A stretch of 14,572 bases of DNA from Pseudomonadota bacterium (GTDB lineage Bacteria > Desulfobacterota > Desulfobacteria > Desulfobacterales > RPRI01). The stretch spans positions 1 to 14,572 of the forward strand of contig JBDRRF010000059.1 in NCBI GenBank assembly GCA_043825875.1. The letters are read 5' to 3'. A program made the position numbers. Positions 1 through 6,000 of the stretch are shown one piece after another. The number at the start of each line of letters is the position of its first letter. The first letter of the stretch is position 1.

Positions 1-3000
1 ATGACGATTTGCTGTCTCGTATTCAACATGTGCTGTTGCTATCGTTATGCCCCTTTCTTTCTCCTCAGGAGCCTTATCTATCTGATCAAACGGTATATAC
101 TCTGCCATACCTTTCAATCCGCTATGCTTTGTTATCGCAGCTGTTAGTGTTGTCTTCCCATGATCTATATGACCTATGGTACCAACATTAACATGCGGCT
201 TCTTCCTCTCAAATTTCTTCTTAGCCATTTTCAATACCCTCCCAATAAAGGGGCTTAAATTAGAATAACAATTCTACCATCTGAAATGAGCAAAAGCCTT
301 ATTTGCTTCAGCCATTTTATGAGTATCTTCCCTTTTCTTTATTGAAGCGCCTCTCTTGTTTGCTGCATCCAAAATTTCACCGGCCAACTTGCCTGCCATA
401 CTCTTTTCATTGCGCTGGTGTGCAAAATTTATTACCCACCTTATTCCAAGAGCCATCCTTCTGGCCGGTCTTATTTCTGTGGGAACCTGATATGTTGATC
501 CACCAACCCGCCGGGATTTAACTTCAATTATCGGTTTTACATTATCCAAAGCCTGTTCAAAAATCTTTACCGGCGGCTCATTTGTGTTTTTCTCAATGAT
601 ACCAAATGCTTCATAGAGTATTGACTCGGCAAGGCTCTTTTTCCCATCCTTCATGATAGCTTTAATGAATTTGGCAACAACCTTGTTGTCGTATTTAGAA
701 TCAGGGATAACAACCCGCTCAGGCACATCTCTTCTTCTCGGCATAAATCACACCATTTATATTATATCTGTTTATTAAAAAAAATAATTACCTACATTGA
801 CATTTTTTCAAGAATAAATCCAGCTACTCCTTGCAACTTATTTGAATAGCCTGCAAACCAAATAATCACTTTGGCCTTTTTGCACCATACTTGGATCTGC
901 TCTTCTTTCTGTCCTCAACTCCCAGTGTATCAAGAGTGCCTCTTACTATGTGATATCTTACACCTGGAAGATCTTTAACACGTCCTCCACGAACCAATAC
1001 AACTGAATGCTCCTGAAGATTATGCCCCACTCCCGGAATGTATGCTGTAACCTCTGCACCTGAAGTAAGCCTTACCCTTGCAACTTTCCGCAAAGCAGAG
1101 TTTGGCTTTTTAGGAGTTGATGTATATACACGCGTACATACACCTCTTTTCTGAGGAGCTCCTTTAAGGGCCGGTGTAGTAACCTTCTTGGCAATCTTGG
1201 TCCTGCCTTTTCTAACTAACTGATTGATTGTAGGCATATTCCCCTCTTAAAATATTATTCACCCGTACAAAATTCAGACATTTACCACAAAGGATAAATA
1301 AATATTTTATTTTAAATTTTGTACACTTCGTGGTTTTAAAAACCATTGTATTTTTTATGGCTTTTTACAATTCATAAAACTCAAAATCTATGCTGTAAAA
1401 CGATGTTTTATACGCACATCCTGTATTTATGTCAAGCAATTTTATATCAAAATACAATTAAAATCTGCCCGCCCTAAATATATATAAGATCTTATTATTA
1501 AAATTATATAGTATCAAACTGTTATTAATGGGATATTTCTATATTCTGGTTTAATGAAAGACCGGAACCTGCAGGTATAACTCTGCCCATAATAACATTT
1601 TCTTTAAGTCCATGAAGATGATCAATAGCACCGGCAATACTGGCATCGGTTAACACCTTGGTAGTCTCCTGGAATGATGCTGCTGAAATAAAACTATCGG
1701 TGCTTAAAGATGCTTTTGTTATTCCAAGTATAAGGGGTTCGGCAATAGCCGGCTTTCCACCTTTTGCCTTAACCGCCATGTTTATCTCTTCATATCTTCC
1801 GCGATCAATCTGTTCTTCAAGGATAAAGTCAGTGTCTCCGACCTCAACAACCTTAACACGTCTTGTCATCTGTCGTACAATTACTTCAATATGTTTGTCG
1901 TTTATACGTACTCCCTGCAATCTATAAACTTCCTGGACTTCATCAACAAGATAACGGGCTAGAGCCACTTCCCCTTTGATGTTTAAGATATCCTGCGGTA
2001 TGGCCGAACCGCCGATAATCGGCTCCCCTGCCCTTATATAATCGCCCTCATAAACATTTATATGTTTACCGCGTGCAACCAGATATTCTTTCTTTTCACC
2101 AAAATCGACAGGCGTTACTGTTACTTTTTGCTTTCCTTTTTTAGTACTTTTTGCAATGGAAACATAACCGTCTATCTCGCTTAATATTGCTATTTCCTTT
2201 GGTTTTCTTACCTCAAAAAGCTCCGCAACTCTTGGGAGACCACCTGTTATGTCTTTGGTTTTCGTGGTTGCTCTGGGAAGTTTCGCAATAACATTGCCGG
2301 CTTTGACATCTTCACCTTCTTCAACCATTAAAACCGCACCAATTGGAAGAATATAACGAGCCATTCCTGATGATTCGGAAAGTTTGACTGTTTTGCCATC
2401 TTCATCTTTGATTGAAATCCTCGGCCTAACCTCTGTGCCTTTTGCTTCAATTATTGTTCGACTCGATTTTCCTGTAACAGGATCAACTTTCTCCTTCATT
2501 GTCCTGCCTGGCGTAATATCTCCAAACTTAACGGTTCCTGCAACTTCTGTAATAATGGGTGTTGTAAAAGGATCCCAGGTAGCAAGAAGATCTCCTGGTT
2601 TTCCTGTTTCAGGATCAGGCCCCTTAACCTTCTGGCCATCAATAACCATAATATGCGCACCGTAAATTACTGGAAAGCTTTCAAGCTCACGGCCTGAATC
2701 ACTTACAACTGTAAATTTACCGCCGCGGCGATTCATTACAATATATTGGTTTTCCGCATTTTTAACAACATGAAGGTCAACAAATTTAATTGTTCCTTCA
2801 ACTCTTGCCCTGATATCGGCCTGTTCAACCCTCCGGCTCGCAGTACCGCCGATATGGAATGTCCGCATAGTAAGCTGAGTACCAGGCTCACCTATCGACT
2901 GGGCGGCGAGAATTCCGACAGCCTGTCCCAATTCAACCTGGGCTCCGCTTGAAAGATCTCTTCCATAGCATTTTGCACACACACCATATCTGGCTTTACA

Positions 3001-6000
3001 AGTAAGAACAGATCTTATCCTGGCATTTGTTATTCCTGCGTCTTCTATTTTTTTTACAGATCCTTCGTCAATCTCATCCCTTTTCTTAACAAGAACCTCA
3101 TCGGTAAAAGGATCAACTATATCATCCACTGCTACTCTGCCAAGGACTCTTTCTCCAAGTCGCTGAATAACTTCTCCGCCTTCAACCAGAGGCTCAACAT
3201 CAACACCCATCAAAGTACCGCAGTCATCCTCCATAACTGCACAATCCTGGGCAACATCAGCCAGCCTCCTTGTTAAATACCCTGAATTTGCAGTTTTAAG
3301 AGCAGTATCGGCAAGTCCTTTTCTTGCACCATGTGTTGAAATAAAATACTGTAATACGGAAAGGCCCTCCCTGAAATTTGCACTTATCGGCGTTTCTATA
3401 ATTTCACCGGAAGGTTTTGCCATTAGACCACGCATACCAGCCAGCTGACGCATCTGATCTTTACTGCCTCTTGCCCCTGATTCCGCCATCATATATATTG
3501 GATTAAAACTTTCTTCATAGACAGGTTTTCCATTTTTATCCAGCACAACATTCCCGTCACTGTCTTTCAAAGTTTCAACCTTCATTGCTTGCATCATTTC
3601 ATTGGCAACATCATCGGTCGCTTTGGCCCAGATATCTACAACTTTATTGTATTTCTCACCTTGAGTGATGAGGCCCTCAGTATACTGCCGTCCGATTTCC
3701 AACACTTTATTTTCGGCTTTTTTGATTATATCTCCTTTTGCAGCCGGAATTATCATGTCACCAATCGAAATCGAGAGGCCTCCTTCTGTTGAGTACTTAT
3801 AGCCTATATCTTTAAGTCTGTCAGCAAGAACAACTGTGGCTTTAGGGCCAAGATTTCTATAAGCATAATCAACAAGATCTCTTAAGGATTTCTTATCCTG
3901 CACCCTGTTAACAGCATCAAAAGGAATTTCAGCTCTCTTTTCATTTATCTGAAATATATGGTATTTTTCTTGTGAGGAAATTATTTCACTTATTTGCCCT
4001 TCTGCAAGAGAAAAAACAGGATCGGCATTTTCAATATCAAAGATTCTTGTAAACTCTTCCTTTCTTAAAAGACCGATATCACCATCTAAAGTTTTTCCGG
4101 AATTTTCGGAGTACTGGTTTACCATCTGCGAAAAAGATTCGCCACTTCTAATTTTTTCATGAATAGTTTTCGCATCTTCTTCCGAAGAAACCATAATATG
4201 GCTCATTCTTACAATATAATCCTTGGGAATAATTTCCCATAATAATATTCGCCCTGTTGTGGTATTAACTTTTTTCCCGTCTATCCGAACAACTATCTTA
4301 GCGTGAAGATCAATCATCCCGGAATCATAAGCAGAACGAACCTCATCCGGATCGGCAAATCTTTTCCCATCACCCTTCGCACCTGAGACTCCCCTTGTCA
4401 TATAATATATCCCAAGAACAATATCCTGAGTCGGTACAATAATAGGACTTCCATTTGCTGCTGATAAAATATTGTTGCTGGAAAGCATTAAAATACGCGC
4501 CTCTATCTGTGACTCAACAGAAAGAGGAATATGGACAGCCATCTGATCGCCGTCAAAGTCAGCATTAAATGCTGTACATACAAGCGGATGGAGCTGAATG
4601 GCCTTGCCCTCAATAAGAATCGGTTCAAAAGCCTGAATGCCAAGCCGATGCAAAGTCGGTGCCCGGTTTAACATCACAGGATATTCTTTTACAACTTCGT
4701 CAAGGGTATCCCAAACCTCCGGGGTCTCACGCTCAACAAGCTTCTTGGCACTCTTTACAGTAGAAACAAGGCCTTTTTTCTCTAAGCGGAAGTAAACAAA
4801 AGGTTTAAAAAGCTCCAAAGCCATTTTCTTAGGAAGGCCACACTGATGAAGCCTGAGATTAGGGCCTATAGCAATAACTGTTCGCCCGGAATAATCAACT
4901 CGTTTGCCAAGCAGATTCTGACGAAAGCGCCCCTGTTTTCCTTTTAACGTATCACTTAATGATTTTAAAGGCCGCTTGTTGGATCCTGTAATAACTCTGC
5001 CATGCCTGCCATTATCAAACAGAGCATCCACCGCCTCCTGAAGCATCCTTTTTTCATTGCGGACTATAATATCAGGAGCTTTTAAATCTATCAGCCGTTT
5101 TAACCGGTTATTGCGATTTATGACTCTCCTGTAGAGATCATTAAGGTCGGAGGTGGCAAACCTGCCGCCTTCTAATGGAACAAGGGGACGCAAATCCGGA
5201 GGAAGAACAGGAATAACATCCATTATCATCCAGCAAGGATTTACCCCTGAACATCTGAATGCATCCACAATCTTAAGCCTTTTTGACAGTTTCTGCCTTT
5301 TTGCCAATGAGGTTGTAGCTTTAATATCGGTTCTTAACTCAGTGTATAATGATTCAAGATCAATATTTTCCAACAGGACCTTTATTGCTTCAGCACCGAT
5401 ACCAGCTTCAAATTTTGTCCCATATGTTTCAAGCGCATCACGGTATTTTTCTTCGGAAAGCAGCTGGCAACGCGTCAGCGGAGTCTCTTTCGGATCTAAC
5501 ACTATATAGCTGTCAAAGTATAAGACTTTCTCCAAACCCTTTAATGTCATATCTAAAAGGTTTCCTATTTTGCTGGGAAGACTTTTTAAAAACCATATAT
5601 GTGCAACAGGCGCAGCAAGTTCAATATGGCCCATCCGTTCTCTTCGAACCTTGGACTGTATAACCTCGACGCCACATTTCTCACAAACTACTCCTCTGTG
5701 TTTCATGCGCTTGTATTTGCCACAATTACATTCGTAGTCCTTGGTAGGGCCAAAAATCTTGGCGCAAAACAAACCATCGCGCTCCGGCTTGAAAGTTCGA
5801 TAATTTATTGTCTCCGGTTTTTTTATTTCACCAAAAGACCATTGCCTGATTTGTTCAGGTGAAGCCAAAGAAATCCGAACACCACTGTATTGTTTCGGAT
5901 CAACAGGTTTGGCGAAGAAATCATATAAGGTTTCCAAATTCTACTCCTTATTTTCTTCCAAAAGATTTATATCCAAGCCAAGACTCTGCAATTCCCTTGT

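What a model noticed while it worked through the whole genome (the two positions that open the first line are those of the whole stretch)
1525..5937. RNA polymerase beta' subunit with an inserted parvulin-type PPIase domain, a trait of Desulfobacterales
The beta' subunit of RNA polymerase (rpoC, g01942, 1470 aa) carries a complete parvulin-type peptidyl-prolyl isomerase domain of about 100 residues (residues ~572-668; C59:3934-4224). It is inserted into the Rpb1_3 ('pore 1') domain about 110 residues after the catalytic NADFDGD loop, where solved proteobacterial beta' chains have a loop of ~22 residues (chain numbering ~561-584). The insertion is present in rpoC of nearly all Desulfobacterales sampled and in none of 117 genomes of other orders of Desulfobacterota, so it is a lineage-specific insertion of the order. 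As far as I could find, a PPIase fold built into the core transcription enzyme has not been described. It may act on, or hold, [...]
Evidence so far: pfam.tsv: RNA_pol_Rpb1_3 is split (hmm 1-100 at aa 489-594, hmm 115-162 at aa 681-728), with Rotamase (E 1.7e-10), Rotamase_3 and Rotamase_2 at aa 576-676 between the halves. phmmer of aa 440-820 against PDB beta' chains gives two blocks: query 1-123 = chain 440-561 and query 229-381 = chain 584-728 of 7xya_D, i.e. ~105 extra residues. AlphaFold of aa 540-720 with 18 orthologous segments: pLDDT 83, insert blocks 77-96. VIA-align against 48,161 PDB chains: PrsA PPIase 6vj6 Z 15.6, rmsd 1.9 A over 95 residues, 34% id; 1zk6, SurA, Par10 and Pin1-type all Z 11-15; the next fold class (FKBP) Z 5. 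Distribution: query aa 540-720 matches at E<=1e-20 in 55 of 61 Desulfobacterales genomes (54 of 60 ge [...]
(Added by a program. Inside this text positions count along the whole contig: contig position 1 is position 1 of the stretch shown here. "Call 12" and the like, gene names such as g00115 and contig names such as C1 are that model's own, and its searches are not shown. The text may have been shortened before it was handed on; [...] marks where a part breaks off. The agent that wrote the report below was given it as the finding of a first reader that could run no searches.)

Follow-up and report, generated by a model that had tools for sequence, protein, structure and literature searches.

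The report
Prolyl-isomerase fold inside RNA polymerase
The largest subunit of this bacterium's RNA polymerase carries an extra 100-residue domain with the fold of a parvulin prolyl isomerase, a feature shared by most Desulfobacterales and apparently not described before, whose job is still unknown.

Summary
Confirmed. ORF 1525-5937(-) is rpoC (beta', 1470 aa) in a standard secE-nusG-rplKAJL-rpoB-rpoC-rpsLG cluster. Residues 573-670 (nt 3928-4221) are a parvulin-fold domain: Pfam Rotamase is above threshold, and the AF2 model matches PrsA 6vj6 at Z 15.4, rmsd 1.9 A over 93 residues. It sits between E. coli beta' G586 and L587. That is within about 5 residues of the surface loop where cyanobacterial, plastid and jumbo-phage beta' chains are split.

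Distribution: 108 of 113 scorable genomes of the order carry it, and 0 of 291 genomes of other families of the phylum do. A beta' tree implies one gain after two basal families diverged, and at least one later loss, probably three or four; one loss is a clean in-frame deletion.

The insert is under purifying selection (dN/dS 0.19-0.34, core 0.02-0.17) but diverges quickly (36% vs 79% pairwise identity). None of 36 sequences keeps the full canonical catalytic tetrad: the Cys/Asp position is Ser in 26. The hydrophobic pocket and the two His are mostly kept.

Best reading: a tethered peptide-binding or chaperone-like module with weak or no isomerase activity. Function is untested. No description was found in the searchable literature, but Lane & Darst 2010 and Iyer 2004 could not be read.

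The parts
1525..5937 (-). rpoC, RNA polymerase beta' subunit, 1470 aa, TTG start 3 nt after the rpoB stop
   Evidence: Rpb1_1 to Rpb1_5 all above cut-off; 796 identical positions in a pairwise alignment with E. coli rpoC
3928..4221 (-). inserted parvulin-fold domain, aa 573-670
   Evidence: Pfam Rotamase/Rotamase_2/Rotamase_3; AF2 model residues 34-131 against PrsA 6vj6_B Z 15.4, rmsd 1.9 A; phmmer to PrsA 6xd8 E 2.3e-11; translation checked
4222..4473 (-). N-terminal part of the Rpb1_3 (pore 1) domain, aa 489-572, ending in the conserved LLWEIIPK
3754..3927 (-). C-terminal part of Rpb1_3, aa 671-728, starting IPFDAVN. It holds K682/K683 (E. coli K598/K599) and K699, V703, D706 (E. coli K615, I619, D622 of ppGpp site 1)
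   Evidence: E. coli residue roles from passages of PMC7676912
4546..4566 (-). catalytic NADFDGD loop, aa 458-464
4198..4200 (-). His580, first parvulin histidine (His in 30 of 36 orthologues)
4102..4104 (-). Asn612, the position of the catalytic Asp/Cys of active parvulins (Ser 26, Gly 4, Ala 2, Asp 2, Asn 1, Leu 1 of 36; never Cys)
   Evidence: alignment to PrsA 'SED' and E. coli PpiC 'SIC'; counts
3958..3960 (-). His660, second parvulin histidine (His in 30 of 36)
4039..4077 (-). segment I621-F633 ([12 protein letters not shown]), holding the hydrophobic pocket residues I621, F629 and F633 and the family-specific charged motif RK(D/E)EF.RIF
5941..10041 (-). rpoB (beta subunit), context

Best explanation
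This is a real, vertically inherited, lineage-specific domain insertion in the beta' subunit of RNA polymerase. A roughly 97-residue parvulin-fold module was captured once, in the ancestor of the main Desulfobacterales clade. It entered a surface loop of the pore-1 domain that tolerates chain breaks in other lineages (E. coli G586/L587, the cyanobacterial beta'1|beta'2 split site). That loop lies 11-12 residues before the helix that runs from the secondary-channel interior (E. coli K598/K599, near the DksA tip) to ppGpp site 1 and omega. Shown here: the fold, the position, the distribution, purifying selection and repeated loss. Inferred: the domain works as a tethered peptide-binding or chaperone-like module, a holdase or docking site for a proline-containing or hydrophobic segment of an RNAP-associated factor or of RNAP itself during assembly. 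It would have weak or no prolyl-isomerase turnover, because it keeps the hydrophobic pocket and mostly the two histidines but has Ser where active parvulins have Cys or Asp. Confidence that it is a parvulin-fold insertion is above 0.95. Confidence in binder rather than enzyme or passenger is about 0.45.
For: Fold and family.
Site: pairwise alignment with E. coli rpoC. Query aa 671 = E. coli 587, and cyanobacterial beta'2 chains start 2-5 residues from that junction (8syi_Z, 8h3v_B, 8gzg_Z). RpoC2 8syi_Z res 3-55 and tobacco 8w9z_c res 6-54 align to the C-flank of the model. [quoted passage not shown] Jumbo-phage beta' is split at the same site (PMC7598289, passages). The K598-K615 helix links the DksA tip to site 1/omega (PMC7676912, passages).
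Distribution: 108 of 113 scorable genomes in an order sample of 121. 143 of 147 scorable in a second sample of 151. 0 of 291 genomes of other families of the phylum at E <= 1e-24. Five of those were checked to have insert-less rpoC of 1372-1432 aa.
Single origin plus loss: beta' tree with the insert columns removed, 52 rows; a 100%-supported clade of 46 rows holds all 40 insert-bearers.
Selection: dN/dS 0.19-0.34 in the insert in the 4 of 8 pairs where dS was not saturated.
Pocket kept: F629-like position F 27, L 6, V 2, Y 1; F633-like F 32, Y 4; I621-like I/L/V/M 29 of 36.
Catalytic set incomplete: 0 of 36 with the full tetrad, Cys/Asp position Ser 26 of 36, both His in 28 of 36. Lineages that lost both His still keep the domain (L031, L046, L051, L053).
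Against: No binding partner is identified and nothing here measures binding or catalysis. Ser at the Cys/Asp position is itself conserved (26 of 36) and might support a modified catalytic network, so activity is not excluded. The domain was lost at least once and probably three or four times, it tolerates 27-29-residue sub-insertions, and it diverges fast (36% vs 79% mean pairwise identity). All of this fits a dispensable passenger as well. The placement near the secondary channel and omega rests on sequence distance to E. coli residues and on published text, not on coordinates. The model's pTM of 0.63 says the orientation relative to the flanks is uncertain. The definition of the tetrad (C/D, H, H, S/T) and the activity of Pin1 Cys-to-Ser variants are recalled, not taken from a call.
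Confidence: 0.5

Rival explanations
1. The domain is a catalytically active prolyl isomerase tethered to RNAP. It isomerises a prolyl bond in a transcription factor, a sigma factor, omega or beta' itself, and so acts as a built-in timing or folding switch for transcription. This would be a cis-acting bacterial analogue of Pin1/Ess1 acting on the Pol II CTD.
For: Both parvulin histidines are present in 28 of 36 sequences, and the pocket residues are conserved. Ser at the Cys/Asp position is conserved rather than random (26 of 36). The insert is under purifying selection. In the own genome the other two Rotamase matches lie in 640-aa and 344-aa frames that carry SurA/PpiD-type architecture, so this may be the only cytoplasmic parvulin; their localisation was not tested.
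Against: 0 of 36 have the full canonical tetrad, with no Cys and only 2 Asp at the key position. 8 of 36 lack one or both His yet keep the domain. There is no Pin1-type basic phosphate loop: the domain aligns without a gap to PrsA from the first strand, while Pin1 matches begin only at query residue 23. Repeated loss shows it is dispensable.
Confidence: 0.25
2. The domain is a tolerated passenger. A parvulin gene fragment landed in a permissive surface loop and is kept only because removing it cleanly is rare or because it became structurally entangled. It has no specific ligand or activity.
For: The site tolerates chain breaks and linkers in other lineages. The insert evolves much faster than the core: 36% vs 79% identity, and dN/dS about 2-10 times higher in the 4 unsaturated pairs. 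Sub-insertions occur inside it in G115 and family f54. There is a clean in-frame natural deletion in G126 and insert-less rpoC in f70, G020 and G045 inside the insert-bearing clade. Pfam no longer detects it in some members (G073, G027; Desulfatibacillum cluster).
Against: dN/dS of 0.19-0.34 is well below 1. The domain is retained in 108 of 113 and 143 of 147 genomes across about 80 families. Conserved surface-type charged positions are not needed for the fold, for example E628 at 86% and the RK(D/E)EF.RIF motif.
Confidence: 0.22
3. It is an artefact: a mis-assembly, a chimeric contig, an intein or a mobile element inside rpoC.
For: None found. The insert is more AT-rich than the gene (GC 0.33 vs 0.417).
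Against: The insert is in frame with no stops in more than 100 independent genomes, including single-contig assemblies. Its sequence tracks the beta' phylogeny. It is present in NCBI records of cultured Desulfatibacillum strains. Pfam finds no intein or transposase family in the protein.
Confidence: 0.01

Closest known systems
PrsA / PpiC-type (non-phospho-specific) parvulin domains, e.g. Bacillus PrsA (6vj6, 6xd8, 1zk6), E. coli Par10 (1jns)
   Same: Same fold (Z 15.4-11.4) and about 30-34% identity. The two histidines, the GxxG turn and the hydrophobic pocket align without large gaps.
   Different: It is inserted inside beta' instead of standing free or joined to a chaperone domain. It has Ser/Asn/Gly/Ala instead of Asp/Cys at the key position. 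It has a 4-8 residue extra loop after the RIF motif, and 'GLL' where canonical parvulins have 'GWF'. It is cytoplasmic by virtue of its host protein.
Catalytically silent parvulin domains used for peptide binding: SurA P1 (2pv1, solved with a bound peptide) and the PpiD parvulin domain (2kgj)
   Same: A parvulin fold (Z 14.0 and 12.0) kept as a binding or chaperone module. The lack of PPIase activity of these two domains is recalled from the literature, not from a call.
   Different: They are periplasmic and part of dedicated chaperones. E. coli SurA P1 still has Asp at the key position, so sequence alone does not predict inactivity.
Lineage-specific insertions of bacterial RNAP beta' (SI3/beta'In6 and others; HABAS and BEAN domains)
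   Same: A whole domain inserted in a surface loop of beta', restricted to a lineage and inherited vertically. The window's beta' also has the SI3-equivalent region.
   Different: [quoted passage not shown] Whether this site is one of the seven could not be mapped. That paper and its one held supplement file contain no 'parvulin', 'PPIase', 'rotamase' or 'Desulf'.
The beta'1|beta'2 (rpoC1/rpoC2) split site of cyanobacteria, plastids and jumbo phages
   Same: The same position in the chain, within about 5 residues. It is a surface loop (PMC10120043, passages).
   Different: There the chain is broken. Here a folded domain is spliced in.
Pin1/Ess1 acting on the RNA polymerase II CTD
   Same: A parvulin-fold protein physically associated with the transcription enzyme. 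Ess1 7kkf and Pin1 entries match the model.
   Different: Pin1/Ess1 act in trans, have a WW domain and a basic phosphate-binding loop, and target pSer-Pro in a CTD that bacteria lack. The insert has none of these. The biology of Pin1/Ess1 is recalled.

Membership tests
Parvulin (PpiC-type PPIase, Pfam PF00639 Rotamase) | Sequence match above the family's curated threshold | tested here: met
   41.2 bits vs cut-off 21.7, E 3.5e-10; 46.1 bits in the genome scan. In relatives the match weakens (E 2.7e-9 to 1.9e-5) and is not found at E <= 0.01 in G073 and G027.
Parvulin (PpiC-type PPIase, Pfam PF00639 Rotamase) | Parvulin fold (four-stranded sheet wrapped by helices) | tested here: met
   AF2 pLDDT 87. 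6vj6_B Z 15.4, rmsd 1.9 A, 93 aa; 1zk6 Z 15.0; 20 parvulin rows at Z >= 8.8; FKBP-type <= 4.9.
Parvulin (PpiC-type PPIase, Pfam PF00639 Rotamase) | Canonical catalytic tetrad Cys/Asp - His - His - Ser/Thr (definition recalled) | tested here: not met
   0 of 36 orthologues have all four. Key position: Ser 26, Gly 4, Ala 2, Asp 2, Asn 1 (the window), Leu 1. His1 30 of 36, His2 30 of 36. The H-5 position is S/T in 13 of 36.
Parvulin (PpiC-type PPIase, Pfam PF00639 Rotamase) | Hydrophobic proline-binding pocket (Pin1 L122/M130/F134 equivalents; mapping recalled) | tested here: met
   I/L/V/M in 29 of 36; F/L/V/Y in 36 of 36 (F 27); F/Y in 36 of 36 (F 32).
Parvulin (PpiC-type PPIase, Pfam PF00639 Rotamase) | Measurable prolyl cis/trans isomerase activity | not testable with these tools
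   Needs an enzyme assay.
Pin1/Ess1-type phospho-specific parvulin | Extended basic loop after strand 1 that binds phosphate (Pin1 K63/R68/R69; recalled) | tested here: not met
   Strand 1 (SHIMV) runs straight into the acidic helix start SSEEDA, with the same length as PrsA. Pin1 chains align only from query residue 23 onward.
Bacterial RNAP beta' subunit (RpoC) | Rpb1 domains 1-5, the NADFDGD catalytic loop, and a position after rpoB | tested here: met
   796 identical positions with E. coli rpoC.
Known classes of RNAP lineage-specific insertions (HABAS/SBHM, BEAN/BBM2) | The inserted domain has a HABAS or BEAN fold | tested here: not met
   The top structural matches are all parvulins. The Pfam hybrid-motif matches of this protein lie elsewhere (aa 1173-1222).
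Known classes of RNAP lineage-specific insertions (HABAS/SBHM, BEAN/BBM2) | Lineage-restricted, vertically inherited, in a surface loop | tested here: met
   Surface loop per PMC10120043.

The most novel reading that the evidence does not exclude
Desulfobacterales RNA polymerase carries a functional, built-in parvulin. It binds, and possibly isomerises, a proline-containing segment of a regulator at the secondary-channel/omega face. That would couple a prolyl switch or chaperone step directly to transcription through the K598-K615-equivalent helix that links the DksA tip to ppGpp site 1. It would be a bacterial, cis-encoded counterpart of Pin1/Ess1 control of Pol II.
Probability: 0.2. Interest if true: 0.85.

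Novelty: new variant of a known kind. Interest (0 to 1): 0.62.

Why it matters
Lineage-specific insertions tune bacterial RNA polymerases; SI3 is the familiar example. Those described so far are almost all beta-rich HABAS/SBHM or BEAN modules. A domain with the fold of an enzyme and chaperone family, spliced into the catalytic subunit about 110 residues after the active-site loop, is a different kind of add-on.

It sits at the exact loop where other lineages cut the chain. It also lies next to the helix that connects the secondary channel with ppGpp site 1. That makes it a natural place to look for lineage-specific regulation in an environmentally important group of sulfate reducers.

Nature has also provided controls: a clean in-frame deletion (G126), whole families that lost the domain, and lineages that lost both histidines. 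The insert is present in cultured strains with complete genomes (Desulfatibacillum), so biochemical and cryo-EM tests are feasible. If it proves to be only a passenger, it still marks a permissive site for engineering insertions into beta'.

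Tried and rejected
1. Stand-alone parvulin compensation. I asked whether loss of the insert is compensated by a small cytoplasmic parvulin. PF00639 scans of the own genome, 5 insert-less genomes and 5 insert-bearing genomes showed no pattern. The only 93-aa parvulin frame was in an insert-bearing genome (G037).

2. Replacement of secondary-channel factors, as proposed for cyanobacterial Si3. The own genome has GreA (160-aa frame) and a DksA-type zinc-finger protein (129-aa frame), so this is rejected.

3. Search for the same architecture in other phyla.
- The profile search of 1.84 billion representatives with the domain alignment gave 14,779 hits at E <= 0.001.
- I Pfam-scanned 28 of the 150 listed hits. 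Among those, 5 carry RNA_pol_Rpb1 families and are beta' fragments (P0022, P0026, P0029, P0030, P0034), and the long ones are multi-parvulin SurA-like proteins.
- No full-length beta' appears in the list. Clustering at 50% identity can hide insert-bearing beta' behind insert-less representatives, so this says nothing about other phyla.
- The word-indexed search (A2, 'longer') returned 34 proteins. 24 carry RNA-polymerase Pfam families, all but one of 1442-1492 aa; the named ones are a Desulfobacterales bacterium and Desulfatibacillum. The other 10 are parvulin proteins of 408-1135 aa.
- The ESM Atlas gave one RNAP-fragment cluster, Thermodesulfobacteriota, at score 0.83, which is a lead only.
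- The search for related loci could not use the domain alignment because it has no conserved 7-10 column stretch.

4. Donor of the domain. The nearest non-beta' relatives are generic PrsA/SurA/PpiD-type parvulins at 27-36% identity. No donor can be named.

5. Complex prediction was not used, because no specific partner is claimed.

7. Lane & Darst 2010a/b are not held. Iyer et al. 2004 has no PMC id in the reference list seen.

Full report
OBSERVATION

The window holds a textbook cluster on the minus strand: tRNA-Trp, secE, nusG, rplK, rplA, rplJ, rplL, rpoB, rpoC, rpsL, rpsG. The ORF at 1525-5937(-) is rpoC, 1470 aa.

Pfam finds Rpb1 domains 1-5. Domain 3 (pore 1) is interrupted, and Rotamase (E 3.5e-10, 41.2 bits vs cut-off 21.7), Rotamase_3 and Rotamase_2 lie in the gap at aa 576-676. 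Against PDB beta' chains, aa 440-820 align as two blocks with about 105 unmatched residues between them.

I rebuilt the structural evidence independently. An AF2 model of aa 540-720 with 36 orthologous segments has pLDDT 87.0 and pTM 0.63. Foldseek's top hits are PrsA proteins and isolated parvulin domains (6xd8: TM 0.84 normalised to the target, rmsd 2.5 A). VIA-align over 48,161 chains gives 6vj6_B at Z 15.4, rmsd 1.9 A, 93 residues and 34% identity, covering model residues 34-131. It returns 20 parvulin rows at Z >= 8.8, and the FKBP-type PPIases score <= 4.9. The domain is therefore aa 573-670, nt 3928-4221 (translation checked).

WHERE IT SITS IN THE ENZYME

A pairwise alignment with E. 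coli K-12 rpoC puts the insert between E. coli G586 and L587. phmmer of the C-terminal flank confirms that window I671 equals E. coli L587.

The same search shows that cyanobacterial beta'2 (RpoC2) chains begin 2-5 residues from this junction: 8syi_Z has query 7 at chain 12, 8h3v_B has query 7 at chain 5, and 8gzg_Z has query 7 at chain 11. In the fold search, RpoC2 8syi_Z residues 3-55 and tobacco plastid 8w9z_c residues 6-54 superpose on the flank directly after the insert. The C-terminal beta'-like chains of phage AR9 and PhiKZ RNAPs also start there.

The published text agrees. [quoted passage not shown] Jumbo-phage beta' subunits share that split site (PMC7598289, passages). The parvulin domain was therefore spliced into a loop that evolution has repeatedly shown to be permissive.

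Eleven to twelve residues downstream lie window K682/K683, which correspond to E. coli K598/K599. In E. coli these start a helix that runs to K615. Its N-terminus is 6-10 A from the DksA coiled-coil tip, and its C-terminal end contacts ppGpp site 1 and omega (PMC7676912, passages). Window K699, V703 and D706 correspond to E. coli K615, I619 and D622.

That the domain lies on the secondary-channel/omega side of the enzyme is an inference from these facts. No coordinates were available to me, and the pTM of 0.63 suggests the orientation relative to the flanks is not fixed.

DISTRIBUTION AND HISTORY

Order sample. In 121 genomes of the order (89 family codes), 108 have the insert inside a beta' frame. 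Five have beta' without it: G007, G020, G045, G070 and G082. Eight had only weak hits to other parvulins.

Second sample. A sample of 151 genomes was requested at class level, but every row was labelled same order or same genus. It gave 143 with the insert, 4 without (G126, G070, G205, G187) and 4 with no match.

The no-match genomes. I searched the 12 no-match genomes from the two samples with beta' aa 420-760, which includes the universal catalytic loop. Eleven had no match at E <= 1e-10, and one (G015) had only a 34%-identity hit at a contig end. Their assemblies most likely lack rpoC, so they are unscorable. The scorable fractions are 108 of 113 and 143 of 147.

Outside the order. In a phylum sample of 301 genomes, only the 10 genomes of the own order matched at E <= 1e-24. 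The other 291, all from family codes not seen in the order sample, did not. Five of those were checked and have insert-less rpoC frames of 1372-1432 aa.

Named members. Source-named members include a 'Desulfobacterales bacterium' and cultured Desulfatibacillum alkenivorans and D. aliphaticivorans. NCBI places that genus in Desulfobacterales.

Tree. I built a maximum-likelihood tree of 52 beta' fragments (912 columns, insert columns removed, 4 out-of-order rows as outgroup; one row, L033, was dropped because the wrong frame had been extracted). G007 and G082 branch at the base without the insert. All 40 insert-bearers fall in one clade of 46 rows with 100% SH-aLRT support.

Losses. Inside that clade G126 sits in a 100%-supported group with two insert-bearing congeners. 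Its sequence keeps the junction residues on both sides (…RDNI|KRPEIPF…), which indicates a clean in-frame deletion. Family f70 (3 genomes), G020 and G045 also lie inside the clade, on poorly resolved branches. The tree needs at least 3 changes, and strongly supported branches alone force 2. The history is one gain and at least one loss, probably three or four.

CONSTRAINT

Among the 40 insert-bearing rows, mean pairwise identity is 36% in the insert and 79% in the rest of the fragment. I computed Nei-Gojobori dN/dS for eight close pairs. In four of them synonymous sites were not saturated, and there the insert gives 0.19-0.34 against 0.02-0.17 for the rest. The other four pairs were saturated and give no ratio. 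The domain is thus under purifying selection, but much relaxed relative to the core. Two lineages carry 27-29-residue sub-insertions in loops of the domain (G115; G054 and other f54 genomes).

ACTIVE SITE

HMMER alignments to PrsA and to E. coli PpiC place window H580 and H660 on the two parvulin histidines. They place N612 on the Asp of PrsA ('SED') and the Cys of PpiC ('SIC').

Counts across 36 orthologues:
- His1 is His in 30 and His2 is His in 30; both are His in 28.
- The Cys/Asp position is Ser 26, Gly 4, Ala 2, Asp 2, Asn 1, Leu 1, and never Cys.
- The position five residues before His2 is Ser/Thr in 13.
- No sequence has the full canonical tetrad. The definition of the tetrad is recalled.

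By contrast, the positions I map to the hydrophobic proline pocket are well kept: I/L/V/M in 29 of 36, F in 27 of 36 with the rest L/V/Y, and F/Y in 36 of 36. A family-specific charged motif, RK(D/E)EF.RIF, is conserved, with E628 at 86%. Four lineages lost both histidines yet retain the domain. E. coli SurA P1, which I recall to be inactive, still has the Asp, so sequence alone cannot settle whether a parvulin domain is active.

INTERPRETATION

Shown: a parvulin-fold domain, acquired once, inserted at the split-site loop, selected but dispensable.

Inferred: it acts as a tethered peptide-binding or chaperone-like module with little or no isomerase turnover. I put this at about 0.45 of the functional probability.

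Rivals:
- A true RNAP-bound isomerase (0.25). This is supported by the conserved His pair and the conserved Ser.
- A tolerated passenger (0.22). This is supported by fast divergence, sub-insertions and repeated loss.
- An assembly or mobile-element artefact. This is excluded by in-frame presence in more than 100 genomes, including isolates.

Two simple functional ideas failed. Loss of the insert is not matched by gain of a small free parvulin. The insert also does not replace secondary-channel factors, since GreA and a DksA-type protein are present.

COMPARISON WITH WHAT IS KNOWN

The kind of feature is known: RNAP has many lineage-specific insertions. A 2024 survey of beta and beta' architectures states that most lineage-specific beta' insertions are HABAS domains and lists seven locations (PMC11515920; outline and sections 2.4 and 2.6 read). 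Its text and its one held supplement file contain no 'parvulin', 'PPIase', 'rotamase', 'prolyl' or 'Desulf'.

A 2026 paper on domain-insertion architectures that discusses rpoC has no such term either (PMC13114784, passages). Nor does a HelD paper that mentions deltaproteobacterial inserts (PMC8655204, passages).

Full-text searches combining RNA polymerase or rpoC with parvulin, PPIase, peptidyl-prolyl, insertion or Desulfobacter terms found nothing relevant.

Limits of this check:
- Lane & Darst 2010a/b are not held, and Iyer et al. 2004 is not in PMC. Either could list an insertion at this site.
- Domain databases will display the Rotamase match for members where it is strong. For divergent members such as Desulfatibacillum the precomputed Pfam list has none.

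I rate this a new variant of a known kind.

VERDICT

The function is open. Interest is 0.62: the fold and site would surprise an RNAP specialist, and cultured strains make it testable, but dispensability and the degenerate active site temper expectations.

Noticed in passing
L041 (G126:C14:22200-25900), beta' junction region: A natural, clean in-frame deletion of the parvulin domain. The junction residues on both sides are kept (…RDNI|KRPEIPF…). The genome is 97% complete and its congeners carry the insert, so this is a ready-made 'delta-parvulin' allele.
   Followed up: partly
L049 (G115) and L050 (G054); also G146, G191, G214: Extra 27-29-residue sub-insertions inside loops of the parvulin domain, at two different places. 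The domain itself is accreting sequence.
   Followed up: no
L040 (G045:C40:52400-56100): At the insertion site this beta' has about 24 unrelated, acidic residues instead of the domain. This could be a decayed remnant or an independent small insertion.
   Followed up: no
L057 1444-1674(-) and 1714-2181(-) (G000:C57): In the window's genome, rpoZ (omega, 76-aa ORF) lies 39 nt downstream of greA (155-aa ORF) on the same strand. Two factors of the secondary-channel/omega face of RNAP are adjacent.
   Followed up: no
window 5935-5943: The rpoC TTG start lies only 3 nt after the rpoB stop codon. In one search one genome of the order (G155) shows a 2433-aa open frame through the rpoC match, which may be an rpoB-rpoC fusion or an in-frame read-through.
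   Followed up: no
window 3928-4221: The insert is more AT-rich than the rest of rpoC (GC 0.33 vs 0.417).
   Followed up: no
genomes G002, G038, G039, G086, G098, G100, G102, G161, G162, G163, G185: Eleven assemblies (65-98% complete) have no detectable beta' catalytic region at E <= 1e-10. The rpoBC region seems to be dropped often from these draft genomes.
   Followed up: partly
proteins P0018, P0039, P0056, P0061: Proteins of about 1,000-1,040 aa with four to five Pfam parvulin stretches (five or six matched by my profile). Two of them (P0018, P0061) also have a SurA-like N-terminal domain. They rank among the highest-scoring listed hits, from P0018 at rank 1 to P0061 at rank 44.
   Followed up: no
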